Notes: generated by a model not told the origin, from the letters alone. A stretch of DNA of 64,000 bases from an uncultured Alphaproteobacteria bacterium (GCA_910576955.1 CAJTJB010000003.1:121750-185749), one strand, 5' to 3'; positions 1,080-45,185 are shown, counted from the first letter of the stretch. Translations and numbers: made by a program.

Positions 1080-1148
1080 ATCTTATCACCTTTCTTTTTT
1101 TCATTCATACCACTCCCTTTAGAGGGAAAGCTGTCTTTTTTATTTTTC

Positions 1149-1186
1149 TCCTCCCCCTTGAGGGGGGAGGTTGGGTGGGGGTGAAA
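1149..1186. repeat. Family B G/C-tract hairpin repeat (CCTCCCCCTTGAGGGGGGAGG + TGGGTGGGGGTGA)
   Basis: Perfect hairpin cctccccc-ttga-ggggggagg followed by a G-rich tail. The same module recurs at 2846, 18686 and elsewhere. Confidence 0.9.
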
Positions 1187-1197
1187 ATAATTCATCT

Positions 1198-2730
1198 TTA
1201 CGACACCACTGCCACATACCACCACACAACCGCCGCCATAACCGCAAAGCCATAAAGCAACACCGCCGTTCCTCTCTGCCATGCCGGGGAGAGCTTATCC
1301 GCCGCCAGCGCAAGAATCATTGCCATCGGCAGCGGCAAAAGCGCCACATACCGAAAGTCCTGATTGCACATATACGGGTGCATTAAGCCAAACACTATTT
1401 GTCCGCCGAGCAGTCCGAAGAGTAAAAACACCGCTGTCCACGCATAAACATTTTTTGCCTGCCTGCAAAGCAGATAAATCACCGCACCGGCAACCAGACA
1501 TAAAATCGCTTTATAAACCCATACGAGCACCGCAATCAGTCCCATAATCTCCGCGCCGCGGTAACTGAAGTCCCACTGCCCGAACAACGCCGTTTTCGTC
1601 ATTGTTTCCCACAGGTTAATGCCGAAGTCATTATAAAACATCCGCTCATAAACAAGCGCTCCGAGCGGGTTAAGGCGCTCCCACAGGCTATAAGGTTTGA
1701 GGGGCAGATGTTCCTGCGGTGGCACAAACCCCGCGCCGATGTCCAAAACAAAATGCTGGTATAAAGGCCAGAGCATAATTCCTATAAGCAAACACGCGCC
1801 GAATATCAGCAGCTCATACAGTGTCGCCTTGTCCCGCTTGTTCCACAGCCGAACTCCGAGCAAAAACGCCAAAGCCGGCAACACCAACACGCCCGAAAGC
1901 TTGGTCAGCGCCGCGGCGGTGGCAAATAAAAAGATGAAAAAGAGATTTTTCCGCCCGCCGTTTTGGTAATAGAGCAGAGCGTAATATACCGCTCCGGCTT
2001 GCAACGGCAGCAGCAGGCAGTCATTGTTAAAAAAGCCCGCAATCGCATTATACGTCGGGAAAAAGCACACTAACGCCAGCGCCACCCCGAAAACAAGCCC
2101 GCCAACGTTCAAAACCCGCAAAATCCGCGCCGCAATCAGATAATACCACAGCATATAGCAACAAAACAAGACTTGCGCCGTTTCCGCCGCAGCGGTGGTA
2201 TTGTCCGTAAACAGCTGCACGATGCGAATGCTCCCCGCCGCCAAGAAGAAATGCAAAATCGGGTGATACGCCGAATAGCTCGGACGCGTCAACAGCGGAT
2301 TTTCGTTCCAAAACAAAAAGTTATTTTCTAAAATATATTCAATGTAGTTATAGCACGAGGCAAAGTCATATTGCACATCCGTATGCGCGGTGTTGGTGAT
2401 AAACGCAAGGTTAAAAAACGCCGCCGTATAAATCATCCCGTCGGTCAGAGGCTTTTTCGAGAGCCCGTAAGCGGTGGCGATAAACCCGCCAAACAGCCAC
2501 ACGTTCCATACTTTTGCCGGTAAAATAAATGCAGATAAAGCCAAAACCAGTGCCGTTATTCCGGCAACGGCAAACTTTTTGCCCTGCAGTTCCGGCATGT
2601 TAAAGCCGAGCACAAACGCCATCGCCAGCCACAGGTTAAGGCGTGCCGCATCAAGCCCGTAGCAAACTGCCGCTGCCGTTGCCGCCATAAACGCCGCGCC
2701 CATCGCCGCAAATTTCAAAACCGAACGCAC
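1198..2730 (-). CDS. Polytopic membrane protein, possible GT-C-fold (ArnT/PMT_2-like) glycosyltransferase
   Basis: 510-aa ORF that is almost entirely hydrophobic, with more than 10 predicted TM helices and large loops. The overall look resembles 4-amino-4-deoxy-L-arabinose/mannosyl-transferase-like proteins. No catalytic motif verified. Confidence 0.55.
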   Translation of the reverse strand: MRSVLKFAAMGAAFMAATAAAVCYGLDAARLNLWLAMAFVLGFNMPELQGKKFAVAGITALVLALSAFILPAKVWNVWLFGGFIATAYGLSKKPLTDGMIYTAAFFNLAFITNTAHTDVQYDFASCYNYIEYILENNFLFWNENPLLTRPSYSAYHPILHFFLAAGSIRIVQLFTDNTTAAAETAQVLFCCYMLWYYLIAARILRVLNVGGLVFGVALALVCFFPTYNAIAGFFNNDCLLLPLQAGAVYYALLYYQNGGRKNLFFIFLFATAAALTKLSGVLVLPALAFLLGVRLWNKRDKATLYELLIFGACLLIGIMLWPLYQHFVLDIGAGFVPPQEHLPLKPYSLWERLNPLGALVYERMFYNDFGINLWETMTKTALFGQWDFSYRGAEIMGLIAVLVWVYKAILCLVAGAVIYLLCRQAKNVYAWTAVFLLFGLLGGQIVFGLMHPYMCNQDFRYVALLPLPMAMILALAADKLSPAWQRGTAVLLYGFAVMAAVVWWYVAVVS

Positions 2731-2845: not shown

Positions 2846-2947
2846 CCTCCCCCTCTCCTATCCTCCCCCGCCTTGGGGGGAGGGACACCTTGCCGCACAA
2901 CCTCCCCTCCCCCTTGAGGGGGGAGGATGGGTGGGGGTGACAACAAT
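2846..2947. repeat. Composite family B repeat (two G/C-tract hairpins)
   Basis: cctcccccgccttggggggagg and cctcccctcccccttgaggggggaggatgggtgggggtgacaaca; near-identical to the 1149 and 18686 copies. Confidence 0.85.
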
Positions 2948-3054
2948 CTATCCTTTAACTTCCCCCTTTCTCTTAAACGTCATCCCTCCCTTGGTAATGG
3001 TGGTAAGGGGGGCGGCGGAACTTCCGGTTATACATAATCTTTTCAAAATATCGC

Positions 3055-3083
3055 TTGCCAGATTCCAAAACTTATGCTAAAAT
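3055..3083 (+). promoter_or_regulatory. Sigma70-like promoter of the vWA/AAA+ operon
   Basis: TTGCCA (3055-3060), 17-nt spacer, TAAAAT (3078-3083). It lies 34 nt upstream of ATG 3117, and a GGAGG RBS sits at 3108-3112. Confidence 0.6.
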
Positions 3084-3089
3084 AGCATA
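3073..3089. promoter_or_regulatory. Perfect 7-3-7 palindrome overlapping the -10 box (operator-like)
   Basis: TATGCTA-AAA-TAGCATA, read directly from the sequence. Confidence 0.45.
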
Positions 3090-3116
3090 AAGTTTAAAAA
3101 AAATATCGGAGGCGCA

Positions 3117-6100
3117 ATGCTGAACGGCTTAAAAAATATCTTAAAAGGGCAGCGCGAAAAAGCTGAAGAGATAATCGGCGATAAAGAAAAGTATCAGCAG
3201 GAAGCCAAAGTCCGCCATATTAAGGATATTGTCAAAAGCCCGTTAAACCGCTTGCGTATTGAGTTTTCTTCAAATTTTTTGACTGCCGATTGCAAAAACA
3301 AAATCACCGAAGAGTATATTCGTAAGCTGCATTCCAAAATAGAAACGGCGTTTGCAACCGATGAGGATAAAAAGGAAATTTTTGCCGCCCATCAGGAAAA
3401 TTTTGAGCATTTTCTCGCGACCGGCGATATTAAAACCCCGCTAAACCTCAAAGACGAAGAATCGCAACTGTTTTGGGGCGCAGCGTTGGCGCTGTATGCC
3501 GTCCATCCCGAAATGGCGAAAAAGTGGAATAACCGCAACCATAATCCGGACATCACCAAAAGCACGATTTGGCGGCGTATTGCCTCGTCTACCTATATGA
3601 AGCAGGAGCTGCAGAAACACGCGGCAATTTTGGAAAATTCTTTAAGCAATCCGGATGCCAAAATCGTCTGGAGTGCCCACGGTTACCCGAACATCAGCTA
3701 TTGCTTTATCCCCGATAAAAACCTGATTATCGATGATATGCTCTGGACACTGGTTGCCGGGGCGGATGCGGCAGCGCCGGCGATAAACCACGAAATTGCC
3801 CACTCGCAGGGAACGCAAATCACCAAATCCCCGCGGATGGAAGAAATTGACAAGCGCCAAAAAGAACTGATGGGTATAATGCGCACCGCTTCCCGCAGCA
3901 AAGACCGTGCGGCGTATAACAAAGCAGCCAAAGAGGCGACGCGTTTAAAGCTTGAGTTTCAATATCGGTTTTATTTTTTGGACGAGCTTGAAAATATGTA
4001 TGCAAACCGATTCGCGGTTAATTTCGGCGGCGAATATGACGCGGCGCATTTAAACGAGTTGGAAACGGATATTAACGTCGGCGCCAAATACCTTGCGCCG
4101 AAAAGCATTGAAGAAGCGGAAAAAGCATTTAAACAGTCGGCTAATCAGCGGATTATGCATATTAAAGCCATTGCCCGCAACAGCTTTTTTGCCAATAATG
4201 AACTGATTTCGCCGCTCAAATTTGAAGAATGGCACGCGTTGCATCTTTATCCGGAACTGTTAAGCGGCAAAGATGCGGACGGGCACCATTTGGGGGCAGC
4301 AGAGTGTTTTGAGCGTATTCGTGAAATTTGTGATAAGTTTGAAGCAAGCCAGCCGAGTCCGCGGCTTAAAAACTTAAATAAAAAGATGTATCAATCCCGT
4401 ATGACCGCCATGAGCAAACGCCGCGCGGCGATGGTGGATGAGTTTTTTGATACATTTGTCGCCCCGCATATGGAAGAATTGTATAAAGAGGCTGAAAAAA
4501 AGTTTGATGAGCAAGATAAGCAGTTACAAAGCCAAATGCAAAATCAGCAACAACAAAGCCAGCAGCAGGAGAACCAACAAGGTCAAGGCAGCGACCAAGA
4601 CCAGCAGCAGGAGAACCGGCAAGGTCAGGGTAACGACCAAGACCAGCAGCAGGAAAACCAGCAAGGACAGGGCAGCGACCAAGACCAGCAGCAGGAGAAC
4701 CAACAGGGTCAGGGCAAAGACCAAGACCAGCAGCAGGAGAACCGGCAAGGTCAGGGCAGCGACCAAGACCAGCAGCAGGAAAACCAACAGGGTCAAGGCG
4801 GTAACCAAGACCAGCAGCAGGAGAACCAGCAAGGACAGAGCAACGGTCAGCAGCAGGAGAACCTGCAAGGTCAGGGTAACGACCAGAACCAACAACAGGA
4901 GAACCAGCAAGGTCAGGGTAACGACCAGAACCAACAACAGGAGAACCAACAGGGGCAGGGTAACGACCAAGACCAGCAGCAGGAGAGCCAGCAAGGGCAG
5001 GGCAACGACCAGAACCAGCAGCAAGAGAACCGACAAGGTCAAGGCAACGACCAGAACCAGCAACAGGAGAACCAACAAGGTCAGGGTAACGACCAGAACC
5101 AGCAGCAGGAGAACCAGCAAGGGCAGAGCAACGGTCAGCAGCAAAACGAACAAAACAGCGATGCGCAAGAAGAAAACGCTTCAAACGATATGCCCGAGGG
5201 GTTTCCGCCGATGGAGCAGTTTGAACTGCCGGATACCGATAGCCAATACCGCCCGAAACTGACGGAAGAGGAAATAAAAGACCTGCTCGAAAAAGCCGAG
5301 AATTTGCAAGATTTGAAAAAGCTTCTTGAAAAAGCCGGCGATAAAGAAAACGGTGAAGAAAATAAAGACGGTCAAACCCCGCAAAAAACTCAAGGCTCAA
5401 ACCAAGACCTCAATGATAACGAACAAACAAACGACAACCTCGAAGATTACATTCCGCAAAACGACTATCCGACACTGATAGACATTGACAGTATGAAAAA
5501 GCTCAAAGGCGACGAAATGCAGGCTGCGCGTTTTTATCGCGAAGGCAATTGGGACGAATACCAAAAATACATAGCGCAATACGCCAACGAAATTGCGCAA
5601 GCCAAAAAGCTGATTGCCGAGATTATCAAACAAAACAAGCTGGACAGCGTCCGCCGCGGGCACGAAAAGATTAAAGAAAAAATGACTAAACTGCCGGTTC
5701 AGGGCGGGCGGACGATAGACCTGCAGCGTCACGTTGCGCTCGAGCAAAAGCTCCGCCGCGGCGATCCGAACATCACCCGCAAAGATTTGGAGCGTTTTCG
5801 CACCAAATATAAATATTCCGAAGACGAGATAATCAAAGAAATCCAAATTCCGCAGTCCAACTTCGGCATCCTGATTGACGGCTCGGGCTCGATGACCGGA
5901 CGCCCGTTTGAAAATGCGCTTGCCATCTCGTGCATTTTGTATGAAGCTGCCCGCAGTTTCAAAGAGATAAACGTTTATATTTATATGATGGGTCAGCCGA
6001 TACCGTTAACGGTAGCTCTTCCGGATGATGCCACCAAAAAAATTGCCGAAAGGCTGGAGAGCGTGCGCGATGGGCAGGGAGGTTGCAATGACTTTTTAAC

Positions 6101-6521
6101 CCCCGCCATTCGCCAGCTCTTAACCGATGTGTCCGAAAATATGCAGCAACATCCGCACGTTAAAAGCGGTTTTACGCACATTTTCTCCATCACCGATGGC
6201 GGCAATAACGATTATGGCAGCGTAGATGTAAATACCTGCATCGAAAAGCTGTTGGAGAAAAATGAACAAATCACGTTTGACAGTTTCTTCGTTGACGGCG
6301 GCTGGCGCAATTATACCAAACCGTTGATAGAAAAGCTCAAAAAACAGGGCTCAACACAAATTGATTGCGTGGATAATATCGATACGCCCGATAAAATCCC
6401 TGCGGCAATTACCGAAATGTTGAAAAAAAGAATGAAAAACAGCCAAATTAAAGCCCCGCAAACCAATAGTATTAAGCAAAAGTTAATAAATGATGCGCTA
6501 AAAAGCATTAAATGGCGTTAA
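3117..6521 (+). CDS. Large HExxH-motif / Gln-rich repeat / C-terminal von Willebrand A (MIDAS) protein
   Basis: 1134-aa ORF. HEIAH at nt 3789-3803. 14 Q/N/D-rich tandem units at 4560-5135. C-terminal vWA domain with DGSGSM (5877-5894), GGCND and SITDGG, together forming a full MIDAS-like set. Confidence 0.8.
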   Translation: MLNGLKNILKGQREKAEEIIGDKEKYQQEAKVRHIKDIVKSPLNRLRIEFSSNFLTADCKNKITEEYIRKLHSKIETAFATDEDKKEIFAAHQENFEHFLATGDIKTPLNLKDEESQLFWGAALALYAVHPEMAKKWNNRNHNPDITKSTIWRRIASSTYMKQELQKHAAILENSLSNPDAKIVWSAHGYPNISYCFIPDKNLIIDDMLWTLVAGADAAAPAINHEIAHSQGTQITKSPRMEEIDKRQKELMGIMRTASRSKDRAAYNKAAKEATRLKLEFQYRFYFLDELENMYANRFAVNFGGEYDAAHLNELETDINVGAKYLAPKSIEEAEKAFKQSANQRIMHIKAIARNSFFANNELISPLKFEEWHALHLYPELLSGKDADGHHLGAAECFERIREICDKFEASQPSPRLKNLNKKMYQSRMTAMSKRRAAMVDEFFDTFVAPHMEELYKEAEKKFDEQDKQLQSQMQNQQQQSQQQENQQGQGSDQDQQQENRQGQGNDQDQQQENQQGQGSDQDQQQENQQGQGKDQDQQQENRQGQGSDQDQQQENQQGQGGNQDQQQENQQGQSNGQQQENLQGQGNDQNQQQENQQGQGNDQNQQQENQQGQGNDQDQQQESQQGQGNDQNQQQENRQGQGNDQNQQQENQQGQGNDQNQQQENQQGQSNGQQQNEQNSDAQEENASNDMPEGFPPMEQFELPDTDSQYRPKLTEEEIKDLLEKAENLQDLKKLLEKAGDKENGEENKDGQTPQKTQGSNQDLNDNEQTNDNLEDYIPQNDYPTLIDIDSMKKLKGDEMQAARFYREGNWDEYQKYIAQYANEIAQAKKLIAEIIKQNKLDSVRRGHEKIKEKMTKLPVQGGRTIDLQRHVALEQKLRRGDPNITRKDLERFRTKYKYSEDEIIKEIQIPQSNFGILIDGSGSMTGRPFENALAISCILYEAARSFKEINVYIYMMGQPIPLTVALPDDATKKIAERLESVRDGQGGCNDFLTPAIRQLLTDVSENMQQHPHVKSGFTHIFSITDGGNNDYGSVDVNTCIEKLLEKNEQITFDSFFVDGGWRNYTKPLIEKLKKQGSTQIDCVDNIDTPDKIPAAITEMLKKRMKNSQIKAPQTNSIKQKLINDALKSIKWR
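4560..5135 (+). repeat. In-frame 42-bp tandem repeat, 14 units (QQQENQQGQG[S/N]DQ[D/N]), organised as 2 x 288-bp super-repeats
   Basis: 12 units of 42 bp plus 2 shortened 36-bp units (QQQENQQGQSNG) at positions 7 and 14. The halves are 4560-4847 and 4848-5135. Confidence 0.95.
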
Positions 6522-6597
6522 AAAGGCGGCAAAACCGGTTGCGCAAACGGATAAAAAATGATACAATAAAAGCAAAGGCATAAGAAGGAGAATAAAA

Positions 6598-9225
6598 ATG
6601 GCAAAAATATACAGACACAAATTCGGCACCCCTGCATATCCGATACCGATTGCCGACAAGCTCACCGGCGAAATCACTTGGCTTGCGGACGAAGAAAATG
6701 CCGTTTACATCCCCACCATGCGTAATGAAGATAAAGATCGCATATACGGGCGTTTCATCCGTCAGGTAGTGACCGATCCGACGATGATGAAAGATATGAC
6801 CGAAATGCTGTTAAGGCTTGATAAAAGCCGCACGCCAGCCGAGAGCAAAAGCTACGGTTACACCACCATGGGCGCCCCCGGTAACGGTAAAACCTTTTTA
6901 GCCAAATCCATCGGCGAACTGGTACACCCCAAAGGCGCAATTATCGTAGACTGCAATAATATCGATAACCCCGACGAGCTTTTTAAGGTAACAACTTTCA
7001 GCGTGGACCAGACCCGCAAGCAGCGCAAGGTGGATGCCGCCATCCGCATGGGAAATCACGACCCCGAAAATCCGTTTTCGCAAAATGCCGTGGCGTATAT
7101 GAAAAAGATGTTCGGCAATGAAATTGTAACTCAAGAAACCCGTGACGGCAGAAAGATTACCGCCGTGGATTGGAATGCGATAAAACAAGACCCTGCTTAT
7201 GTTGAAGCCGTGCTCGACCGCGTGATGGAAATTGCCGAGATTAAATATGAAAAAGAAGCAAGCTCTTTGGGCTTTGTCGTCAGCAACGGTCCTTTGCTGC
7301 AGGCGTTAATCGACCCCGAGTCGCCGGATTACGGACGTATGGTCATCCGCGATGAGTCAAACCGCGGACCGGCTGTGGACGCATGGCTGCGCATTCAGGC
7401 GTTTTTCTCCGAGCCGTCTGCCGAAGAATTGAAATTAAAAGGCGAAGACGATAAAGAAATGGTCATCCGCCGCTCCGAAATTCCCGACACGTTTATGTTT
7501 TTGGGCACGGCAAATAATGCCACCGAAGATATGGGCTTAAGCGCCAAAGAGCTGACCAAGCCGATGATTTCCCGTGAAGGTATGGGCATTGATATCCGCC
7601 AGATTTCAGACCCCGAAAAGGCAGACTTTATCTCGCGTACGTTAAAGCACTTAACCGGCGTTCCCGCCTATCATGTTTATATGATGGATCCCGAATATTT
7701 TGACCGCCGCCCCGACGAGCTGGCAAAAACCTTAATGCACCTGCGCACCGTCGGTTTAACGCCGGAAGAGAAAAAGAAAATCCCGCAGGAGGAAAAATTT
7801 AACATCGAGCATATCGACCGCACCATCGAGGTTGCTACCCAATACGGCAGCTTAATCGCCGAGGCGGAAAATATCGTCCGTCAGGCGATAAAAGATGACA
7901 GCCTGCCCACAGCCTATACCGATTATCTGCAAAATCAGGTTGTGCTTGATTTGCGTTATGTTTATAAGCTCTATCAGCATTCCAAAATCAGCCACCCGAC
8001 GGTGAAAGCCAAAGGCAAAGGCTTGTTTGCCGGATTAGGGAAGAAAGAAACCACGCAAACGCAGGAGGAAATCGCTTGGGAGATGAACAAGCGCATTGCC
8101 AAGCGCGAAAAAGACCAGTTGCTCGTGCGCGGCACAAGGCTTGAAAACGAAGTCGCAACCAAGCTGCATGATATGATAATCCCCGACAGTATCAATAATA
8201 TGCTCAAAGATTCGGAAGATGCAGCAGCCGATTACGGCAAAATCGAGGGCTTGTGGAAATCGCTCGTGCACACGGCGAAAGGCTTAAAGTTTGAATATGC
8301 CGGCTATGTTGGGGAAGATTCGGTTGCGCAGACCTATAATGCCCGTCCCGAAGACCTACCGAATGTTGCGCTCGACGAGATTAAGGAAGTTCTGATAAGT
8401 TCCATCAACCGCGAATACAAAGAGCAGCTGCAGCCCGAGGATGTGTTTGATGACGACACGCTGCTTGAAGCCGTGCAGCTGATGGCAAAAGAAGACGATA
8501 TGAAACACATTCTCGTGCCGAATCATGATATTGAAACCACCGTTGAAGAACCGGTGTTAAAAACCTATATCGCCTCCACGCAAAAGCAGCAGATTGCCCG
8601 CGAAGAGCTGATAACCGCCGCGCAGTTTGCCGACAGTCTGATATATAAAAATATGCGTAAATACAACATTCGCAAATATGCCGATGAAAAGCCCGACCTG
8701 TCGGAAACGGATGGTAATGCGGCAAGCCGCCGCATCGCCTTGGGAAAAGACGCTGATTTCTTCACCACCAGCGTGTTGGTAAATGACGAAGAGGGGCAGG
8801 ATTTTGGCTTTGCCTCGGTTATTTATAACAAAGGCAATCAAAATGCGATGATTTTGGCAACGTTTGACATTAACGCCGACAGTCGCGCCAAATTAAGCAA
8901 AGCCGGCGTTTTGTTCGTGAACTTAAAGCGCGAAAAAAGCGATGCCGAAGCCGAGCGCGATTATAAGCTGATAGCAAACTATCTTGAAGACCAAACTACG
9001 CAGTGTCTGGATAGCGAGGTCAAACCGTCGCATATTGTTTCGTCGTTAATGCTGCGCATTGAAAAAGACTTGGCAGAAGACGGCACGGTTGAAGATTATT
9101 GCCAATATCTGCAAGGCTTATCGGGCGAAGAACTGGCTGTATGCGATGCCGTGCAGCTGACCAACATCGGCTATGAAGAAAACCAAACCCTGCAACAAGC
9201 ATTAGCAGGAAGAAAGGGGAGATAA
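6598..9225 (+). CDS. AAA+ ATPase of the AAA_5 / MoxR-CbbQ-NorQ-like type with a long C-terminal extension
   Basis: 875 aa. Walker A GAPGNGKT (6871-6894). Walker B region MVIRDESNRGP (DExNR type, 7351-). FLGTANN sensor-like segment. AGGAG RBS upstream of the ATG. Confidence 0.8.
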   Translation: MAKIYRHKFGTPAYPIPIADKLTGEITWLADEENAVYIPTMRNEDKDRIYGRFIRQVVTDPTMMKDMTEMLLRLDKSRTPAESKSYGYTTMGAPGNGKTFLAKSIGELVHPKGAIIVDCNNIDNPDELFKVTTFSVDQTRKQRKVDAAIRMGNHDPENPFSQNAVAYMKKMFGNEIVTQETRDGRKITAVDWNAIKQDPAYVEAVLDRVMEIAEIKYEKEASSLGFVVSNGPLLQALIDPESPDYGRMVIRDESNRGPAVDAWLRIQAFFSEPSAEELKLKGEDDKEMVIRRSEIPDTFMFLGTANNATEDMGLSAKELTKPMISREGMGIDIRQISDPEKADFISRTLKHLTGVPAYHVYMMDPEYFDRRPDELAKTLMHLRTVGLTPEEKKKIPQEEKFNIEHIDRTIEVATQYGSLIAEAENIVRQAIKDDSLPTAYTDYLQNQVVLDLRYVYKLYQHSKISHPTVKAKGKGLFAGLGKKETTQTQEEIAWEMNKRIAKREKDQLLVRGTRLENEVATKLHDMIIPDSINNMLKDSEDAAADYGKIEGLWKSLVHTAKGLKFEYAGYVGEDSVAQTYNARPEDLPNVALDEIKEVLISSINREYKEQLQPEDVFDDDTLLEAVQLMAKEDDMKHILVPNHDIETTVEEPVLKTYIASTQKQQIAREELITAAQFADSLIYKNMRKYNIRKYADEKPDLSETDGNAASRRIALGKDADFFTTSVLVNDEEGQDFGFASVIYNKGNQNAMILATFDINADSRAKLSKAGVLFVNLKREKSDAEAERDYKLIANYLEDQTTQCLDSEVKPSHIVSSLMLRIEKDLAEDGTVEDYCQYLQGLSGEELAVCDAVQLTNIGYEENQTLQQALAGRKGR

Positions 9226-9227
9226 TT

Positions 9228-9542
9228 ATGGAAAAGCTTATGAATAAAAACGAGATTGAAAGCATTATCCTGCAAACGGTAATGGCGCGCCCGTATCAAG
9301 AGGTTGAGGGGTGTCGCGTCTATCCGCTTGAAGCTGCTGGCGAAGAAGAGGTGATAAAAAAACTTAAAGGCACGAGAGAAGTCGAAACGCTCACAGAGCT
9401 TGAAACCGCCATCAACGCCCCCGATGTTGCGCAGGTTTATATCGGCAAATACGCCTCCATCACCTCGAAAGGGTTGAAAAACGTTCTTTCCCGCACTTCG
9501 CTCACCAAAGAGATTTTCTGCGCTTTCTCGGTAAAACTCTAA
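9228..9542 (+). CDS. Small acidic protein, third gene of the vWA/AAA+ operon
   Basis: 104-aa ORF whose ATG lies 2 nt after the stop of the ATPase gene. GGGGAG RBS sits inside the upstream gene's 3' end. No recognisable domain. Confidence 0.6.
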   Translation: MEKLMNKNEIESIILQTVMARPYQEVEGCRVYPLEAAGEEEVIKKLKGTREVETLTELETAINAPDVAQVYIGKYASITSKGLKNVLSRTSLTKEIFCAFSVKL

Positions 9543-9563
9543 TTTCCCCCACAAAACCCTAAA

Positions 9564-9613
9564 CCTCCCCCCCTTCCCTGGAGGAAGGGGTAAGGGGGAT
9601 GGGGACAACAAAC
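9564..9613. repeat. Family B repeat (CCTCCCC..TTCCCTGGAGGAAGGGGTAAGGGGGATGGGGACAACAAAC)
   Basis: Near-identical copy at 9716-9762; related copy at 60776-60820. Confidence 0.9.
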
Positions 9614-9632
9614 CATCCATATCTCCCTCCTC

Positions 9633-9704
9633 TTTTTTTATCCCAACAAGTCGGGCGTCATCCCTCGAATCGTTGCAGGTGGCGCTGCCACTCAAGGGAT
9701 CTCC
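9633..9704. repeat. Family C repeat (..CCAACAAGTYGGGCGTCATCCCTCGAATCGTTGCAGGTGGCGCTGCCACTCAAGGGAWCTCC)
   Basis: Copies at 13346, 18745 and 49441; partial copies at 13648 and 16111. Contains the GTGGC-GCT-GCCAC hairpin. Confidence 0.9.
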
Positions 9705-9715
9705 CACCACAAACA

Positions 9716-9762
9716 CCTCCCCTTCCCTGGAGGAAGGGGTAAGGGGGATGGGGACAACAAAC
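9716..9762. repeat. Family B repeat, second copy flanking the family C unit
   Basis: Direct comparison with 9564-9613. Confidence 0.9.
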
Positions 9763-9772
9763 AATCTAATGC

Positions 9773-9815
9773 GTCATTGCGAGGCGCACCGTAAGGTAGC
9801 AGCCGTGGCAATCTC
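9773..9815 (+). repeat. Family A repeat (GTCATTGCGAGG - variable stem-loop - CGTGGCAATCTC)
   Basis: gtcattgcgaggcgcaccgtaaggtagcagccgtggcaatctc; one of at least 20 copies in the window. Confidence 0.9.
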
Positions 9816-9909
9816 AACCATCAAGAGCATATCTTCTTTTTTTGTGAAAATTCTTGACAAAAAAATCCTAGTCTGCTAATATCCCGTACAGAACAAAAAT
9901 TTTTAAGAT

Positions 9910-10641
9910 ATGGATTATATAGATGCACGAGTGCTGCTCTCAAAAGAAAAGCCGCTCGCCCCGCAAGAAGCGGTAGACATTCTCAACAGCTGGCGTTCAG
10001 ATCCGGAAAACTATTACCTCTTGTTAAAAACGCAAGGGGCGTCTGTTCCGTTGCTGGGCTATAGGTATTGCTCGGAAGAAGACAGTAGATACGTTTTTGA
10101 AAAAACAAAAAAGCGTATTCTCTCTCCGGCGTTTGCGCTCAAGTTTTTCGAATTTCGCTCGGACAGTATGAGCACTATTTTTATGGAAACGCTGGATATG
10201 CTGACCTTTTCGGAAGATGACGAAGATTCCGATGTGGCGTTTTATGCCTGGCCGTATTATAATGCGGTAATCGTTTCTCATCTCACGCCCGTTGCAATCA
10301 TTCACCTGTTGCTCAACTGGAATTATGTTTTTGATTGCGAGGCTGACCAATTCGGAATGGTCTATAACACGTTCTATGAAACGCTGAAAGCCGCCGAGGA
10401 ATGCACTGATATTTTAGCTGTCAACAGCTTTAATCTGCACGGTTGGGGTGAAAACACCAATCATCCGATTGAAGATGTCGCCAAACATTATCACTTTGCA
10501 AATTATTCGGTCGCATTGGAAGACGGTTCGGAAGACATACATTTCCGCAAGACTCTCGTCCATTACCTCTATGCCTATTGGCAAAATATGGAAGACATCA
10601 TCACAGCGGTATTGCACGAACGCATTATGCGGAGTAATTAA
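9910..10641 (+). CDS. Hypothetical protein
   Basis: 243-aa ORF followed by a strong intrinsic terminator. No recognisable motif. Confidence 0.6.
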   Translation: MDYIDARVLLSKEKPLAPQEAVDILNSWRSDPENYYLLLKTQGASVPLLGYRYCSEEDSRYVFEKTKKRILSPAFALKFFEFRSDSMSTIFMETLDMLTFSEDDEDSDVAFYAWPYYNAVIVSHLTPVAIIHLLLNWNYVFDCEADQFGMVYNTFYETLKAAEECTDILAVNSFNLHGWGENTNHPIEDVAKHYHFANYSVALEDGSEDIHFRKTLVHYLYAYWQNMEDIITAVLHERIMRSN

Positions 10642-13251: not shown

Positions 13252-13345
13252 GAAAAACAAACATTCTTTCTCCTCTATTTAAACGTCATTCCTCGGCTTG
13301 CGATGCAAGCCGTCAAGGAATCTCCCCGCGGTTTTCCCCTCCCTC

Positions 13346-13415
13346 TTTTTATTCCAACAAGTTGGGCGTCATCCCTCGAATCGTTGCAGGTGGCGCTGCC
13401 ACTCAAGGGAACTCC
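13346..13415. repeat. Family C repeat
   Basis: Same sequence as 9633-9704. Confidence 0.9.
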
Positions 13416-13609: not shown

Positions 13610-13647
13610 GTTCGGCAAGAGTATCCTTTCCACCCGCCGCAGCTAAA

Positions 13648-13684
13648 ATCGTTGCAGGTGGCGCTGCCACTCAAGGGATCTCCT
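13648..13684. repeat. Family C repeat, 3' partial copy
   Basis: aatcgttgcaggtggcgctgccactcaagggatctcc. Confidence 0.85.
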
Positions 13685-13806: not shown

Positions 13807-13908
13807 CCTCCCCATCCCCTATCCCCTTCCTCCAAGGGAAGGGGAAAACCCCGCAGCAAACCTCCTCCCCCTTTGGCGGGGGAGGTAAGGGAGAGGGGGA
13901 AAATAAAG
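13807..13908. repeat. Composite family B repeat, uninterrupted form
   Basis: cctccccatcccctatccccttcctccaagggaagggg...cctcctccccctttggcgggggaggtaagggagaggggga. The same composite occurs at 18836-19063, where it is split by a ~123-bp insertion. Confidence 0.85.
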
Positions 13909-18633: not shown

Positions 18634-18685
18634 CACCCCACCACCGAAAGTCATTCCCCAACAGCCCCGGTTTGCGATGCAATTT

Positions 18686-18725
18686 CCCCTCCCCCTTGAG
18701 GGGGGAGGACGGGTGGGGGTGACAA
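18686..18725. repeat. Family B hairpin repeat
   Basis: cccctcccccttgaggggggaggacgggtgggggtgaca. Confidence 0.9.
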
Positions 18726-18744
18726 TAAGACATCCTTTCTCCCT

Positions 18745-18815
18745 CTTTTTTATTCCAACAAGTTGGCGTCATCCATCGAATTGTTGCAGGTGGCGCTGCC
18801 ACTCAAGGGAACTCC
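18745..18815. repeat. Family C repeat
   Basis: ttattccaacaagttggcgtcatccatcgaattgttgcaggtggcgctgccactcaagggaactccc. Confidence 0.9.
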
Positions 18816-18835
18816 CGCAACAAGAGCATCCATAA

Positions 18836-19063
18836 CCTCCCCATCCCCTATCCCCTTCCTCCGCGGGAAGGGGAAACCCTTGCGGCACACATCTCCTCCC
18901 CCCAGCGCGGGGCTCGCAGAGCAAAAGCAGTGCTTGGTGAGCGACTTGGCGGAAACGCCAACAAAGCGAACTCTAGCACTGGCTTGACCGTAGCGCAGTT
19001 AGAGCGCGCAACATGCGCACCCTTACGAAGCAAGAAAGGTAAGGGAGAGGGGGACAACAAACA
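18836..19063 (+). repeat. Composite family B repeat interrupted by a ~123-bp structured insertion (family D, copy 1; insertion ~18912-19034)
   Basis: The flanks match 13807-13908. The insert ctcgcagagcaaaagcagtgcttgg...ggcttgaccgtagcgcagttagagcgcgc...cttacgaagcaag is shared with 32746-32896 and 35459-35613. Confidence 0.8.
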
Positions 19064-19259
19064 CATCCTTATCATCTCCTTCCCTCTTTTTTATCCCAAC
19101 AAGAGCATTCCATTGACCGAGCTCACACTCGGAGCGATGGTTTATACAAACAAAGCCTGTATAAAGCAGTACAAAAAAATAATATTTGTCAATATTTTTG
19201 TTGATTTTAAAAATAAGATATGCTACATTCCCCGTCTGTAAAAGGAATAAAGGCATAAA

Positions 19260-33553: not shown

Positions 33554-33604
33554 GGTAAGTTAACATCTGCTATTTTCTCCCACCAAAAAACTAGCTCCCC
33601 AATA

Positions 33605-33651
33605 CTCCTCCCCCCTTGGCGGGGGAGGTAAGGGAGAGGGGGACAACAAAC
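33605..33651. repeat. Family B repeat, uninterrupted reference form
   Basis: ctcctccccccttggcgggggaggtaagggagagggggacaacaaac. Confidence 0.9.
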
Positions 33652-33675
33652 ATCCATCTATATATACTCTTCAAA

Positions 33676-35374: not shown

Positions 35375-35411
35375 GTCATTGCGAGGCTTGTTTACAAGCC
35401 GTGGCAATCTC
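35375..35411 (+). repeat. Family A repeat
   Basis: gtcattgcgaggcttgtttacaagccgtggcaatctc, with internal hairpin cttgt-tta-caag. Confidence 0.9.
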
Positions 35412-35441
35412 CCGCAACAAGAGCAATCTCAACTCAAGCGT

Positions 35442-35640
35442 CCCCCTCCCTTGGGGGGCTCGCAGGATAAAACAACACGGTGTGTTGTTTTTGCCGAGAG
35501 CAATAGCAGTGCTTGGCGAGTGACTTGGCAGTGATGCCAATAAAGCGAACCCTAGCACTGGCTTGACCGAAGCGCAGTTAGGGCGCGCAATAAGCGCACC
35601 CTTACGAAGCAAGTGGGGATAGGGGGTGGGGACAACATCC
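35442..35640 (+). repeat. Family B hairpin split by a ~155-bp structured insertion (family D, copy 3; insertion ~35459-35613)
   Basis: ccccctcccttgggggg | ctcgcaggataaaacaacacggtgtgttgtttttgccgagagc...gcttgaccgaagcgcagttagggcgcgc...cttacgaagcaag | tggggataggggg. Confidence 0.8.
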
Positions 35641-35745
35641 AACCTTAAAACTTCCCCCTCCTCGGCGGAAGGGAGGGGATGGGGACAACATCCAACCTTA
35701 AAACTTCCCCTTCCCTGGCGGAAGGGGGTAGGGGATGGGGACAAC
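35637..35745. repeat. Two tandem ~53-56-bp family B-like units ending 1 nt before a stop codon
   Basis: atccaaccttaaaacttcccc..ggcggaaggg..ggggatggggacaac occurs twice (35637-35689 and 35690-35745). Confidence 0.9.
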
Positions 35746-39739: not shown

Positions 39740-39924
39740 AAAAATTTAATGATAATACTAATTCTGCCTCAAATCATATAGAAGATAAATAAAAGAATCA
39801 AGCTTATTTTTAAAAATAAACAAAAAAATATTATTTTTTATATTTTGTCTATTGACAATCCAATCAAAAAGCATTATAACCAAAACCGTAAACTTTATTA
39901 TTCTAACCCTAAAACACTACTATT

Positions 39925-40638
39925 ATGAAAAAATTTATGTTATTTACGGCAACTGTTATTGTAATATTCGTAACATCTTGCACAAACATTAAGGAAACCC
40001 CGTTGTCAGACACGCTGGTAAAAGAAACCGGAACCGTAGAGGGCAGAGTTGTCTCCGGCGTTAAAACAACCGATGGCAAAGAGATTATTCCGATGGAATA
40101 TGACAATGTCGACCTTTTTGAGAAATATATCGCCGTTCAGCGCGATCTTGACCATTATCTTTATACGGCAGAGGGCGAAAAAATCTTATCAGCCCCCGCA
40201 TCATCAATTATTCCGTATGATGAGTATATCAAATTTAATGTCGAGGAGGGAACGGTGCTGTATTTCAAGGAAAATGCCCGCATAACCAAACCTTATGCTG
40301 CCGTTGGCGATAATAATGACGATTTTCTCTTTTGCCAGGGCGACAGCATAGAAGTTATTTCTAAAAAAGGAAAAACGCTCGTTGCCGGAAAAAAGGTGAT
40401 TTGCCTTTTTTCAAAAGCCGATAAACAGAGCTATTTTATAGTTGTGAGCGGCAAATCCGGCAAAGCGTTCGGCATGGACGGCACGGAACTGTTTCCGGTT
40501 AATGTCGAGTTGTTGGAAAAACTTCCTCGCGCCAGCTGGAAATTAAATGAAAATGCGTGCCACGTCAGCACCAGAAACGAAGTAGCCGCCCTCAAGGCCG
40601 CAACCTCCGTCAAAAGAGCCCCTAAAAAAAGAAAGTAA
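39925..40638 (+). CDS. Lipoprotein with WG-repeat-like units
   Basis: Lipobox VIFVTSC. TDGKEIIPMEYDNVDLFEKYIAVQRD resembles KWG/WG repeats. Confidence 0.6.
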   Translation: MKKFMLFTATVIVIFVTSCTNIKETPLSDTLVKETGTVEGRVVSGVKTTDGKEIIPMEYDNVDLFEKYIAVQRDLDHYLYTAEGEKILSAPASSIIPYDEYIKFNVEEGTVLYFKENARITKPYAAVGDNNDDFLFCQGDSIEVISKKGKTLVAGKKVICLFSKADKQSYFIVVSGKSGKAFGMDGTELFPVNVELLEKLPRASWKLNENACHVSTRNEVAALKAATSVKRAPKKRK

Positions 40639-40669
40639 TATTGAAATTGAAAATTTGCTTTGTATTTTT

Positions 40670-40707
40670 AATCCCTTTCGCTGCGAAGCGCGGGGGATTT
40701 TTTTTTA
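40670..40707 (+). terminator. Rho-independent terminator; left edge of the AT-rich island
   Basis: aatccc...cgctgcgaagcg...gggatt hairpin followed by T9. Confidence 0.7.
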
Positions 40708-40747
40708 TACCTGTTAAAAAGTATAACAAATAAAATATAACTTGGCA

Positions 40748-40805
40748 TAAATAGAATAATCTCTTGCAAATCATAAAAAATAAGCAGACGCTACAACTAA
40801 AGTAT
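40748..40805 (+). promoter_or_regulatory. 58-bp conserved leader, copy 1
   Basis: 57/58 identical to 42518-42575: taaatagaataatctcttgcaaatcataaaaaata[a/g]gcagacgctacaactaaagtat. Confidence 0.7.
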
Positions 40806-40823
40806 CAGAAGCGGAGAAAAAAC

Positions 40824-41822: not shown

Positions 41823-41856
41823 TTTGTTTATCATATCTATATAAGGGAAAAATATT

Positions 41857-42575: not shown

Positions 42576-42607
42576 AACACAAGAATCGGAGAGGATGGAG
42601 AGAAAAG

Positions 42608-45108: not shown

Positions 45109-45185
<77 letters not shown>

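What the first reader, a model, noticed from the sequence alone, without database searches (positions are those of the whole stretch)
3055..9542. Oversized HExxH-vWA / AAA_5-like ATPase / small-protein operon with no obvious client: candidate undescribed MoxR-vWA-type system
Seen directly: three co-directional genes sit behind one sigma70-like promoter (gaps of 76 nt and 2 nt, each with an RBS). Gene 1 (1134 aa) combines an N-terminal HExxH (HEIAH, 3789-3803), a ~190-aa Gln/Asn/Asp repeat spacer and a C-terminal vWA domain with a complete MIDAS (DGSGSM at 5877-5894, GGCND, SITDGG). Gene 2 (875 aa) has a single AAA+ module: Walker A GAPGNGKT and a DExNR-type Walker B (VIRDESNRG), with ~150 aa inserted between them. 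It is followed by ~550 aa with no motif I recognise. Gene 3 encodes a 104-aa acidic protein. Established knowledge: AAA_5 ATPase + vWA pairs act as remodelling or metal-insertion machines (CbbQ-CbbO, NorQ-NorD, CoxD-CoxE, RavA-ViaA), and vWA-MoxR ternary modules have been proposed as conflict systems. The HExxH-then-vWA order recalls DUF2201_N/DUF2201 proteins that pair with MoxR-like ATPases. Inference: several features are atypical for the characterised pairs, and together they suggest a distinct, possibly effector- or defence-like variant. The vWA gene comes first. Both proteins are 2-3 times the usual size. There is a eukaryote-like low-complexity spacer. No rubisco, NOR, CODH or other client gene is nearby. 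The locus is bracketed by repeat mosaics at 2846-3030 and 9543-9830.
Basis: partly seen in the sequence, partly recalled or inferred. Interest (0 to 1): 0.8.

Follow-up and report, generated by a model that had tools for sequence, protein, structure and literature searches.

The report
Uncharacterised CobS/CobT-like motor–adaptor gene trio
Three conserved genes of uncultured gut Alphaproteobacteria encode an ATP-driven ring motor, a partner built like the cobalt-chelatase adaptor CobT but still carrying an intact zinc-protease motif, and a small third protein; no curated family covers them and their target is unknown.

Summary
Three co-directional genes (1134, 875 and 104 aa) carry the stated HEIAH, MIDAS, Walker A and Walker B motifs at the stated coordinates.

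The defence or effector reading is not supported. There are no PADLOC hits and no phage or plasmid relatives. The trio sits in a conserved chromosomal neighbourhood and evolves only slightly faster than the adjacent housekeeping genes.

The window proteins give no significant hit in Pfam, NCBIfam, PHROGs or PDB sequence searches. Structure models and family-wide scans place them among AAA+ motor / vWA adaptor pairs:
- Gene 2 is a MoxR/CobS-like AAA+ ATPase with an enlarged insert and about 500 extra C-terminal residues.
- Gene 1 has the architecture described for CobT: a zincin-like N-domain, a disordered linker, then a helical extension plus a vWA domain.
- Unlike what is described for CobT, the gene 1 N-domain keeps HExxH plus a downstream Glu. 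This holds in all close relatives and in 86 of 102 superfamily members.

The gene 1–gene 2 pair recurs in about 160 protein clusters, all from MAGs and, where named, Alphaproteobacteria or Pseudomonadota. In the three distant loci that keep the small protein, an ankyrin-repeat protein or a relative of one lies next to the trio.

Best reading: a new variant of a known kind, probably an ATP-gated remodelling or proteolytic machine. Its client is unknown.

The parts
3055..3083 (+). Sigma-70-like promoter candidate (TTGCCA, 17 nt, TAAAAT, with TG)
   Evidence: One search matches 10 of 12 positions. The number of such hits in the region is at chance level, so this is plausible only.
3117..6521 (+). 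Gene 1: adaptor-like protein, 1134 aa (zincin-like N-domain, disordered linker, vWA)
   Evidence: ORF. Orthologues precede the ATPase gene in all 17 genome-contig loci checked (a few are truncated) and in the other loci examined.
3204..4568 (+). Gene 1 N-terminal domain (residues ~30-484), mostly helical with a three-stranded sheet before the HExxH helix
   Evidence: AF2 block pLDDT is mostly ~70-93 (lowest ~56). Strands are at 182-186, 196-198 and 203-207; helix 216-232 follows. No Pfam family matches in 56 members scanned. No PDB sequence relative.
3789..3803 (+). HEIAH (His225, Glu226, His229): zincin metal-binding and catalytic motif
   Evidence: Invariant in alignments A2, A4 and A5. Retained in 86 of 102 superfamily members.
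3984..4010 (+). ELENMYANR (Glu290-Arg298): candidate third zinc ligand Glu292, 63 residues after His229
   Evidence: Glu292 is invariant in A2, A4, A5 and A7. The spacing is M48-like (own knowledge).
4569..5534 (+). Low-complexity linker (residues ~485-806), largely disordered, including a 42-nt x 14.1 tandem repeat at 4547-5133
   Evidence: pLDDT is below 50 at 485-690 and 741-806; a short helical stretch at ~699-743 is modelled with moderate confidence. Tandem repeat. Length is hypervariable: orthologues range from 938 to 1344 aa.
5535..6518 (+). Helical pre-vWA extension (residues ~807-900) plus vWA domain (913-1110) with MIDAS residues Asp921, Ser923, Ser925, Asn991/Asp992, Thr1026/Asp1027
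   Evidence: AF2 model. Foldseek hits: Rea1-MIDAS 6qtb E 1.6e-4, vWF-A1, NorD 9qhe_G E 8e-4. VWA_2 matches 9 of 11 and 26 of 45 relatives.
6598..9225 (+). Gene 2: AAA+ ATPase, 875 aa
   Evidence: ORF. AF2 mean pLDDT is 84. 44 homologue clusters, all ~880 aa.
6835..7617 (+). AAA+ module (residues ~80-340): Walker A 6871-6894, enlarged insert between strand 2 and strand 3, Walker B 7342-7368, sensor-1 Asn306, Arg finger Arg326
   Evidence: Invariant Gly97, Lys98, Thr99, Asp252, Glu253, Asn255, Arg256, Asn306 and Arg326. AAA_5 matches 22 of 27 relatives, best E 6.5e-8. Best compact fold hits are NorQ and CbbQ2. The assignment of these residues to sensor-1 and Arg-finger roles is my reading of the model and alignment.
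7618..9222 (+). Gene 2 lid, long helical region and C-terminal alpha/beta domain (residues ~341-875), no known family
   Evidence: Confident in AF2. No Pfam or PDB sequence match. Only low-probability fold hits.
9228..9542 (+). Gene 3: 104-aa protein, start 2 nt after the gene 2 stop
   Evidence: Conserved in all close loci; 16 invariant columns in A3. Weakly recognisable in distant loci L033, L035 and L037. Absent in L041.
9910..10641 (+). Neighbouring 243-aa acidic protein; membership doubtful
   Evidence: Adjacent in 8 lineages but on either strand, and only 25-29% identical where the trio is 43-63%. Replaced by an unrelated 527-1096-aa family in other lineages.

Best explanation
The three genes encode a motor-adaptor machine of the MoxR/CobS-CobT type.

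Proposed mechanism:
- Gene 2 assembles into an ATP-hydrolysing AAA+ ring. Its active-site residues are all present. Its helix-2 insert region is enlarged, and about 500 extra C-terminal residues probably bind partners.
- Gene 1 is the adaptor. Its C-terminal helical extension plus vWA domain docks on or into the ring, as the CobT 'shaft' does in CobS. Its MIDAS site grips an acidic residue of a partner.
- A long flexible Gln/Asn/Asp/Glu linker tethers an N-terminal M48-like zincin domain that keeps HExxH plus a downstream Glu.
- I propose that ATP-driven movement of the adaptor positions or switches on this zincin domain so that it cleaves or remodels a client protein.
- Gene 3 is a small obligate partner: adaptor, inhibitor or substrate.

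Status of each step:
- Shown: the gene structure, the motifs and their conservation, the fold assignments (AAA+, vWA, disordered linker), the synteny and the lineage distribution.
- Inferred: ring formation, shaft docking, peptidase activity, the role of gene 3 and the identity of the client.
For: ATPase (gene 2):
- The AF2 model is confident, with mean pLDDT 84.
- The best compact Foldseek hits are NorQ in NorQD complexes (TM to target 0.43-0.47, probability 1.0) and CbbQ2.
- AAA_5 matches 22 of 27 family members, best E 6.5e-8.
- Walker A, Walker B (DExNR), Asn306 and Arg326 are invariant.

Adaptor (gene 1):
- The vWA domain has invariant MIDAS residues.
- Foldseek hits include Rea1-MIDAS, vWF-A1 and NorD.
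- The best match in the viral structure library is a phage 'CobT subunit', E 5e-11 over 1027 alignment columns. That span runs from the N-terminal region to the vWA domain. vWA-only hits score about 1e-5.
- Gordonia phage GMA7 gp71, called CobT-like in UniProt, has HEIGH plus DASGS and matches Pfam CobT_C. It lies next to an AAA_5 ATPase.
- The CobSTN preprint describes CobT as an M48C-like N-domain, a ~90-residue disordered linker, and a shaft plus vWA that inserts into the CobS ring. It generalises this to a motor-adaptor-effector model.

Catalytic site:
- His225, Glu226, His229 and Glu292 are invariant in close relatives.
- HExxH is kept in 86 of 102 superfamily members.

Unit character:
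- The trio is present in 17 of 17 species-representative loci checked.
- It is also present in three distant MAG loci, L033, L035 and L037.
- No transmembrane segment or signal-like N-terminus was found.
Against: - No window protein reaches a curated threshold: AAA_5 scores 15.3 bits against a cut-off of 22, and CobT_C scores 13 against 21.
- NCBIfam CobS, CobT, MoxR and NorQ models do not match.
- The N-domain's zincin fold rests on an AF2 model built from 15 sequences and on a whole-chain Foldseek alignment that I could not inspect residue by residue. No solved zincin was retrieved by sequence.
- 16 of 102 superfamily members have lost HExxH. The domain can therefore work without catalysis, as described for CobT.
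- Characterised MoxR/vWA pairs mostly insert metals or remodel enzymes rather than cleave proteins.
- No client was identified.
- Gene 3 is missing at the far edge of the family.
- Oligomerisation and the gene 1-gene 2 contact were not modelled.
Confidence: 0.55

Rival explanations
1. Non-proteolytic metallochaperone or remodelling chaperone. Like NorQD, CoxDE, CbbQO or CobST, the pair inserts a metal into an unidentified enzyme or releases an inhibitor from it. The HExxH+Glu site would serve as a metal-binding or scaffold element, not a peptidase.
For: - All characterised MoxR/CobS-vWA pairs act this way (preprint discussion).
- The CobT N-domain is an M48C-like fold used for binding, not catalysis.
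- 16 of 102 relatives lack HExxH.
- The site offers two metal-binding positions, HExxH+Glu and MIDAS.
Against: - The catalytic Glu of HExxH is kept wherever the two His residues are kept. That is expected for hydrolysis rather than for mere metal binding.
- No metalloenzyme client is conserved next to the trio.
Confidence: 0.25
2. Anti-phage defence or another conflict system of the vWA-MoxR ternary type. The ATPase-vWA pair would keep an effector (the zincin) inactive until it senses an invader.
For: - The vWA-MoxR ternary systems described by Kaur et al. use peptidase effectors.
- Accessory genes vary between lineages: ankyrin-repeat proteins, a nucleotide cyclase, an unrelated 527-1096-aa family.
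- The linker is hypervariable.
- Phages carry analogous pairs.
Against: - No PADLOC hit. No phage or plasmid relative.
- The chromosomal context is conserved across 43-52% identical orthologues.
- The trio is 43-63% identical where TrkH and PSD are 63-70%. That indicates purifying selection, not an arms race.
- The gene 1 architecture is fixed, without effector swapping.
- The vWA domain is C-terminal, whereas the ternary systems have an N-terminal vWA domain followed by variable C-terminal effectors.
- The third protein is a ~105-aa protein, not a VMAP or iSTAND component.
Confidence: 0.1
3. A divergent but genuine aerobic cobaltochelatase CobS/CobT working with a CobN encoded elsewhere.
For: - The overall architecture matches CobT.
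- The only Pfam hit of gene 1 is a sub-threshold CobT_C match.
Against: - NCBIfam and Pfam CobS and CobT models fail in all members.
- Both proteins are 2-3 times larger than CobS and CobT.
- There is a conserved third small subunit.
- No CobN or other cobalamin gene lies in any of the neighbourhoods seen.
Confidence: 0.04

Closest known systems
CobS-CobT, motor and adaptor of aerobic cobaltochelatase CobNST (preprint 10.64898/2026.07.21.739949)
   Same: - The motor is an AAA+ protein with helix-2 and pre-sensor-1 inserts.
- The adaptor is a zincin-like (M48C-like) N-domain, a disordered linker, then a helical extension plus vWA with DxSxS...N...D MIDAS residues.
- The best structural match of gene 1 in the viral library is a protein annotated CobT.
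   Different: - No CobS or CobT HMM matches.
- Gene 1 is 1134 aa against 637 for CobT, and gene 2 is 875 aa against about 330.
- The gene 1 N-domain is twice as long and keeps HExxH+Glu.
- The linker is 200-900 aa rather than ~90.
- There is an extra ~90-aa insertion between Walker A and Walker B.
- There is a conserved 104-aa third protein.
- No CobN is present.
- Gene order is adaptor first.
Phage 'CobT-like' vWA protein plus AAA_5 ATPase pairs (for example Gordonia phage GMA7 gp71/gp72)
   Same: - HExxH near the N-terminus and a C-terminal vWA with DxSGS and TDG.
- The adjacent ATPase has a DExN Walker B.
- The function of these phage pairs is also unknown.
- Foldseek links gene 1 to these proteins.
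   Different: - The phage proteins are half the size.
- They do match Pfam CobT_C and AAA_5 above threshold.
- The ATPase gene comes first.
- No small third gene was noted.
- No sequence-level similarity to the trio beyond the motifs.
NorQ-NorD and CbbQ-CbbO (MoxR AAA+ / vWA chaperone pairs)
   Same: - They are the best compact structural matches for the gene 2 AAA+ module (9qhg, 9qh8, 6l1q), and NorD matches the gene 1 vWA domain (9qhe_G).
- The vWA domain sits at the C-terminus of a larger adaptor.
   Different: - Their clients (cNOR, Rubisco) are encoded nearby.
- No HExxH domain is known in NorD or CbbO (own knowledge).
- The ATPases are about 260-270 aa without the N- and C-terminal extensions.
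Midasin/Rea1 (eukaryotic AAA_5 ring, Asp/Glu-rich linker, C-terminal MIDAS domain)
   Same: - A long acidic low-complexity linker precedes a MIDAS domain that works with an AAA_5-type ring.
- Rea1-MIDAS is the top PDB fold hit for gene 1 (6qtb, E 1.6e-4).
   Different: - Midasin is a single polypeptide with six AAA modules.
- It has no zincin domain.
- Its ligands are UBL domains. Gene 3's fold was not predicted, so a UBL-like fold is untested.
vWA-MoxR ternary conflict systems (VMAP, iSTAND; Kaur et al. 2020, PMC7159879)
   Same: - Three components, including a MoxR-like ATPase and a vWA protein.
- Peptidase domains occur among their effectors.
   Different: - Those systems have an N-terminal vWA domain with highly variable C-terminal effectors, and a large VMAP or iSTAND third protein.
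- They are sporadically distributed, mostly in multicellular prokaryotes.
- Here the architecture is fixed, the third protein is tiny and inheritance is vertical.
FtsH (AAA+ ring fused to an M41 zincin): functional analogy only
   Same: Couples an AAA+ motor to an HExxH metallopeptidase.
   Different: - FtsH has a classical-clade AAA domain fused in cis and is membrane-anchored.
- Here the peptidase-like domain sits on a separate vWA adaptor tethered by a disordered linker.

Membership tests
AAA_5 / MoxR-class AAA+ ATPases | Match to Pfam AAA_5 (PF07728) at or above the gathering score | tested here: inconclusive
   The window protein scores 15.3 bits against a cut-off of 22. 22 of 27 family members match, with best E 6.5e-8. 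The distant relative in L037 scores 22.8 bits.
AAA_5 / MoxR-class AAA+ ATPases | Walker A GxxGxGKT, Walker B hhhhDExNR, sensor-1 Asn and Arg finger | tested here: met
   GAPGNGKT, VIRDESNR, Asn306 and Arg326 are invariant in 27 sequences. They are also conserved in distant homologues.
AAA_5 / MoxR-class AAA+ ATPases | AAA+ fold with a helix-2 insert and a pre-sensor-1 beta-hairpin; closest to MoxR structures | tested here: inconclusive
   The AF2 model has strands 277-281 and 287-291 before strand 4, and hairpin 177-190 inside a ~125-aa insert. Best compact hits are NorQ and CbbQ2, but ClpB/ClpC NBD2 and NtrC score similarly, with E-values of 1e-3 to 1e-1.
CobS (cobaltochelatase motor) | Match to curated CobS models, size of about 330 aa, and partnership with CobN | tested here: not met
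   No CobS family appears among the NCBIfam hits of 27 members. The protein is 875 aa. No CobN-like gene lies in any neighbourhood.
CobT (cobaltochelatase adaptor) | C-terminal vWA domain with MIDAS residues, preceded by a helical extension | tested here: met
   Asp921, Ser923, Ser925, Asn991/Asp992 and Thr1026/Asp1027 are invariant. Helices 812-894 precede vWA 913-1110.
CobT (cobaltochelatase adaptor) | Match to Pfam CobT_C (PF11775) or CobT (PF06213) above threshold | tested here: not met
   CobT_C scores 13 bits against a cut-off of 21. Only 4 of 11 and 1 of 45 relatives match it weakly. PF06213 never matches. No NCBIfam CobT match.
CobT (cobaltochelatase adaptor) | M48C-like zincin-fold N-domain joined to the vWA domain by a disordered linker | tested here: inconclusive
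   The AF2 model shows a three-stranded sheet, an HExxH helix and a helical bundle, and the linker has pLDDT of about 25. A whole-chain Foldseek hit to a phage 'CobT subunit' gives E 5e-11 over 1027 columns. The N-domain could not be searched on its own.
DUF2201_N / DUF2201 (putative metallopeptidase plus VWA-like, partners of MoxR) | Match to PF13203 and PF09967 | tested here: not met
   Neither family appears for gene 1 or for any of 56 relatives scanned, at E up to 0.1-1.
Gluzincin metallopeptidases (clan MA) | HExxH on a helix after an edge strand, with a third ligand Glu on a downstream helix | tested here: met
   His225, Glu226, His229 and Glu292 are invariant in close relatives. They lie on helices 216-232 and 264-326, after strands 182-207. 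HExxH is lost in 16 of 102 distant members.
Gluzincin metallopeptidases (clan MA) | Zinc binding and peptidase activity | not testable with these tools
   This needs metal analysis and protease assays.
vWA-MoxR ternary conflict systems (Kaur et al. 2020) | N-terminal vWA with variable C-terminal effectors; a VMAP, iSTAND, FtsH or beta-propeller third component; sporadic distribution | tested here: not met
   The vWA domain is C-terminal. The architecture is fixed across about 100 full-length relatives. The third gene encodes about 105 aa. Synteny is conserved. VMAP-C HMMs were not available.
Known anti-phage defence systems (PADLOC-DB 2.0) | Any component matching a PADLOC model | tested here: not met
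   Zero hits for genes 1-3 and the downstream gene at E up to 1.

The most novel reading that the evidence does not exclude
The trio is a previously unrecognised 'split' ATP-dependent metalloprotease. A CobS/MoxR-like ring controls an M48-like zincin that is tethered to it through a vWA 'shaft' and a long disordered linker. The 104-aa protein would act as a dedicated regulator or substrate adaptor. Ankyrin-repeat or alpha-solenoid proteins, encoded next to it in some lineages, would be the clients. On this reading it would also be the catalytically intact relative of the inactive M48C-like domain of the chelatase adaptor CobT. That would show how chelatase and MoxR adaptors arose from a peptidase.
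Probability: 0.3. Interest if true: 0.7.

Novelty: new variant of a known kind. Interest (0 to 1): 0.55.

Why it matters
AAA+ motor / vWA adaptor pairs mature key metalloenzymes (B12, chlorophyll, NO reductase, CO dehydrogenase, Rubisco), yet most such pairs have no known client.

This family adds about 1,500 conserved residues per locus that no curated model covers: the 450-aa N-domain of gene 1, the 500-aa C-terminal region of gene 2, and gene 3.

It is fixed in a lineage of uncultured Alphaproteobacteria found in human, mouse and ruminant gut metagenomes.

It also keeps an apparently intact peptidase site in the position where CobT has only an M48C-like scaffold. If that site is active, it would link the chelatase/MoxR adaptor class to regulated proteolysis and give an evolutionary origin for the CobT N-domain.

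If it is not active, the family is still a well-delimited new target for finding the client of a motor-adaptor machine.

Tried and rejected
- **Direct library scans.** Pfam, NCBIfam, PADLOC and PHROGs scans of the four proteins gave nothing significant.
- **PDB by sequence.** Searches with single proteins and with family profiles (A1, A3, A5, A7) gave only chance-level hits. A short ELENxxxNR-like match to an aminotransferase (E 1e-3) was judged a motif coincidence.
- **Phage and plasmid origin.** tblastn of gene 2 found nothing. The gene 1 vWA region hit only Ro-like vWA proteins at E of about 1.
- **Mobile element bounded by the flanking repeats.** Rejected. The repeats are a dispersed genome-wide family, and the upstream and downstream copies share no specific inverted or direct pair.
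- **The 243-aa downstream protein as a fourth subunit.** Doubtful. It lies on either strand, evolves fast, and is replaced in other lineages by an unrelated family. hhalign between the two families gave probability 0.5%.
- **A Ulp1/CE-clan cysteine-protease domain at the gene 2 C-terminus.** Suggested by low-probability hits to SseL, SENP8 and RavZ. Rejected as an active enzyme, because no Cys or His is conserved there.
- **Gene 3 as a ubiquitin-like MIDAS ligand, by analogy with Rea1.** Not supported. I have no structure model. By eye, from its sequence pattern, it looks like alternating helices and strands rather than a beta-grasp.
- **HMM link from the trio to phage GMA7 gp71/gp72.** Only the HExxH and DxSGS motifs align.
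- **IDs of unlisted homologues.** Not retrievable.

Full report
**1. What is in the sequence**

Three co-directional ORFs occupy 3117-6521 (gene 1, 1134 aa), 6598-9225 (gene 2, 875 aa) and 9228-9542 (gene 3, 104 aa). The gaps are 76 nt and 2 nt, and each start follows a Shine-Dalgarno-like sequence. A promoter-like site lies at 3055-3083, although such hits occur at chance frequency in this region.

The Gln/Asn-rich spacer is a 42-nt tandem repeat of 14 copies.

Three details needed correction:
- Gene 3 is not really acidic (pI 5.6).
- None of the proteins has a hydrophobic segment.
- The flanking G/C-rich repeats belong to a family scattered through intergenic regions of the whole window. They do not delimit the locus.

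**2. Library searches**

None of the three proteins reaches significance in Pfam, NCBIfam, PADLOC or PHROGs. The same holds for PDB sequences, whether searched with single sequences or with family profiles. The only hints were sub-threshold: AAA_5 and AAA_22 at the P-loop of gene 2, and CobT_C at the MIDAS motif of gene 1.

**3. Relatives and distribution**

The word-indexed search found 44 gene 2 clusters. All are about 880 aa, 37-91% identical, and the few that carry a name are called Alphaproteobacteria bacterium or Acetobacter sp. MAGs.

The window sequence is identical to contigs of NCBI MAG assemblies such as GCA_949058685.1. A scan of 185,579 species-representative genomes found relatives in only 19. 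All are uncultured Alphaproteobacteria from human, mouse, ruminant or other animal guts. From my own knowledge, the 'Acetobacter sp. CAG' genomes are placed in GTDB order RF32; I did not test this.

An ORF orthologous to each of genes 1, 2 and 3 is present, in that order, in all 17 of those loci with enough sequence; a few gene 1 copies are truncated at contig ends or within the repeat. The same order is seen in the other close loci fetched.

In four lineages whose gene 2 is 43-52% identical, the neighbourhood is also conserved: TrkH, a PMT_2-like membrane protein, then the trio, with phosphatidylserine decarboxylase a few genes downstream. Between these genomes the trio is 43-63% identical. 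TrkH and PSD are 63-70% identical, and the adjacent 243-aa protein only 25-29%. This is the signature of vertical inheritance under purifying selection. It is not the signature of a mobile defence island.

**4. Gene 2**

The 27-sequence alignment shows invariant Walker A (Gly97, Lys98, Thr99), Walker B (Asp252, Glu253, x, Asn255, Arg256), Asn306 and Arg326. I read Asn306 as sensor 1 and Arg326 as the arginine finger.

AF2 gives a confident model with mean pLDDT 84. It contains:
- a small N-terminal beta domain;
- an AAA+ core with a ~125-aa insert between strands 2 and 3, including a beta-hairpin;
- a hairpin before strand 4;
- a lid;
- a long helical region;
- a C-terminal alpha/beta domain.

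The best compact Foldseek matches are NorQ in the new NorQD complexes and CbbQ2. ClpB/ClpC NBD2 and NtrC-type activators score close behind.

Scanned individually, 22 of 27 family members match AAA_5, with best E 6.5e-8. None matches curated CobS, MoxR or NorQ models in NCBIfam.

Gene 2 is therefore an active-looking AAA+ ATPase of the MoxR/CobS neighbourhood, but not a member of any curated subfamily. Its C-terminal 500 residues have no recognisable relative. Low-probability hits to CE-clan proteases are not backed by any conserved Cys or His.

**5. Gene 1**

Alignments of diverse orthologues show three parts:
- a strongly conserved ~450-aa N-domain with invariant INHEIAHSxGT and ELENMYANR;
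- a spacer that varies in length and composition, giving proteins of 938-1344 aa;
- a conserved ~330-aa C-terminal region with invariant Asp921, Ser923, Gly924, Ser925, Asp992, Thr1026, Asp1027 and Gly1028.

The AF2 model has mean pLDDT 66.7 because about 300 residues are disordered. It gives:
- a confident helical N-domain, in which a three-stranded sheet (182-207) precedes the HExxH helix (216-232) and Glu292 lies on the next long helix;
- a linker with pLDDT of about 25;
- helices 812-894;
- a vWA fold at 913-1110.

Against the PDB, the hits are Rea1-MIDAS, vWF-A1, integrin I domains and NorD. Against the viral library, the best hit is a phage 'cobalt chelatase CobT subunit' at E 5e-11, aligned over 1027 columns. 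It is followed by other phage CobT-like proteins, while vWA-only hits reach only about 1e-5. I take this to mean that the N-domain contributes to the match, but I could not view the alignment.

**6. The CobT connection**

A July 2026 preprint on CobSTN reports the CobT architecture:
- an N-domain resembling the M48C peptidase domain (a three-stranded sheet followed by helices);
- a ~90-residue disordered linker;
- a C-terminal vWA domain preceded by a beta0-alpha0'-alpha0 extension.

The 'shaft' of that extension inserts into the nucleotide-bound CobS ring, where it is surrounded by the helix-2 inserts. The CobT N-domain binds the CobS lid, and CobN sits on the MIDAS side. The authors generalise this to a motor-adaptor-effector scheme shared with NorQD, CoxDE, CbbQO and RavA-ViaA.

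Gene 1 has the same tripartite layout. I fetched one of the phage proteins, Gordonia phage GMA7 gp71. It has HEIGH near its N-terminus, DASGS and YYTDG in a CobT_C-matching vWA domain, and an adjacent AAA_5 ATPase with a DExN Walker B. HExxH-vWA adaptors paired with MoxR/CobS-like motors are therefore a wider class, to which this trio belongs by architecture. Sequence profiles of the trio do not detect the phage pair beyond the motifs.

**7. The wider family**

An exhaustive profile search with the gene 1 N-domain found 164 clusters at 50% identity, 126 of them at E of 1e-10 or better. Most are 850-1300 aa with the domain at the N-terminus. Those checked have a low-complexity acidic or polar linker and a C-terminal vWA domain (VWA_2 up to E 2.8e-10). 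Where named, they are MAGs of Alphaproteobacteria or Pseudomonadota.

No Pfam family matches the N-domain in any of 56 members scanned.

HExxH is retained in 86 of 102 full-length members and lost in 16. The downstream Glu (the AEN/AED motif) is nearly universal. In the subfamily that contains the window, the site is invariant.

Three distant loci keep the whole trio. An ankyrin-repeat protein (Ank_2 up to 60 bits in L033) or, in L035, a weak relative of one lies next to it, and a nucleotide cyclase follows it in L037. The most distant locus keeps the gene 1-gene 2 pair only. It has no small protein, and its Walker A to Walker B spacing is canonical.

Within the gut lineages, gene 3 is followed either by the 243-aa family or by an unrelated, mostly helical 527-1096-aa family.

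**8. Interpretation**

The well-supported part is that genes 1 and 2 form a motor-adaptor pair of the MoxR/CobS-CobT kind, and that gene 3 is a lineage-wide third subunit.

The mechanism I favour is as follows. The gene 2 ring engages the helical extension and vWA domain of gene 1. The MIDAS site holds a partner. The tethered zincin domain then cleaves or remodels a client in an ATP-dependent way. This rests on analogy with the CobST structures and on the conservation of the full catalytic HExxH+Glu set.

The main rival is a non-proteolytic metallochaperone or remodelling role, as in all characterised pairs. It is favoured by the 16% of relatives that lost HExxH. The defence or conflict reading and the true-cobaltochelatase reading are each contradicted by several tests.

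**9. Novelty and limits**

The kind of system (AAA+ motor plus vWA adaptor) is known, and the adaptor architecture now has a structural precedent in CobT. What is new:
- a well-delimited family without any curated model;
- an intact peptidase site;
- greatly enlarged subunits;
- a conserved small third protein;
- no client.

I rate it a new variant of a known kind, of moderate interest.

Limits:
- The N-domain and the gene 2 C-terminal domain could not be searched separately.
- AFDB was not available.
- The species scan used two peptide patterns specific to the gut subfamily, so the phyletic range is a lower bound.

Noticed in passing
window 1147-1199, 2839-2940, 9562-9617, 9711-9766, 13337-13415, 13647-13683, 13809-13900, 18685-18874, 19038-19103, 33597-33657, 35397-35745, 49440-49489, 60770-60847: A dispersed family of G/C-rich, partly palindromic intergenic repeats (core CCCTTCCCTGGAGGAAGGGGTAAGGGGGATGGGG and relatives). 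It resembles REP or MITE elements and occurs in many intergenic regions of the window.
   Followed up: partly
window 39900-44000, next to tRNA-Met at 45109-45185: A low-GC island (30-33% GC against ~48% elsewhere). It encodes several proteins with lipoprotein-like or membrane-like N-termini and no obvious relatives. It lies beside a tRNA-Met gene and upstream of lpxB-like genes, so it may be horizontally acquired.
   Followed up: no
window 9910-10641: A 243-aa acidic protein (pI 4.7) always adjacent to the trio in eight lineages but on either strand. It evolves much faster (25-29% identity) than its neighbours and has no family match.
   Followed up: partly
L012 10992-15131, L014 10979-14407, L031 12952-16242, L007 8731-11883 (related loci): In other gut and rumen lineages, gene 3 is followed directly by one or two co-directional proteins of an unannotated, mostly helical family (527-1096 aa, sometimes duplicated in tandem). 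They may be lineage-specific partners or clients.
   Followed up: partly
L033 13273-17377; L037 8678-9982 and 16498-17916; L035 16183-17721: In distant Pseudomonadota and Alphaproteobacteria MAGs, the trio is flanked by true ankyrin-repeat proteins (Ank_2 up to 60 bits) that are homologous to one another across loci. In one locus a guanylate/adenylate cyclase gene is also adjacent.
   Followed up: partly
window 4547-5133 and orthologues: The 14-aa Gln-rich repeat array varies greatly in copy number between near-identical strains: gene 1 ranges from 938 to 1036 aa among the ~84-89% identical clusters and from 939 to 1162 aa among the ~62-67% identical clusters. This inflates the number of 90%-identity clusters and probably breaks some assemblies (truncated gene 1 in L011 and L030).
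   Followed up: partly
L029 1849-3291, L030 6145-7587, L001 3040-4482 and others: TrkH stays next to the trio even where the local arrangement differs: upstream and divergent in most loci, downstream and convergent in L030. This may be plain synteny or a functional link.
   Followed up: no
L040 5949-9429 (Gordonia phage GMA7 gp71/gp72): The phage 'CobT-like' protein carries an intact HEIGH motif in front of its CobT_C vWA domain. It sits next to a 540-aa AAA_5 ATPase with a ~270-aa N-terminal extension. The GenBank record calls gp71 hypothetical.
   Followed up: partly
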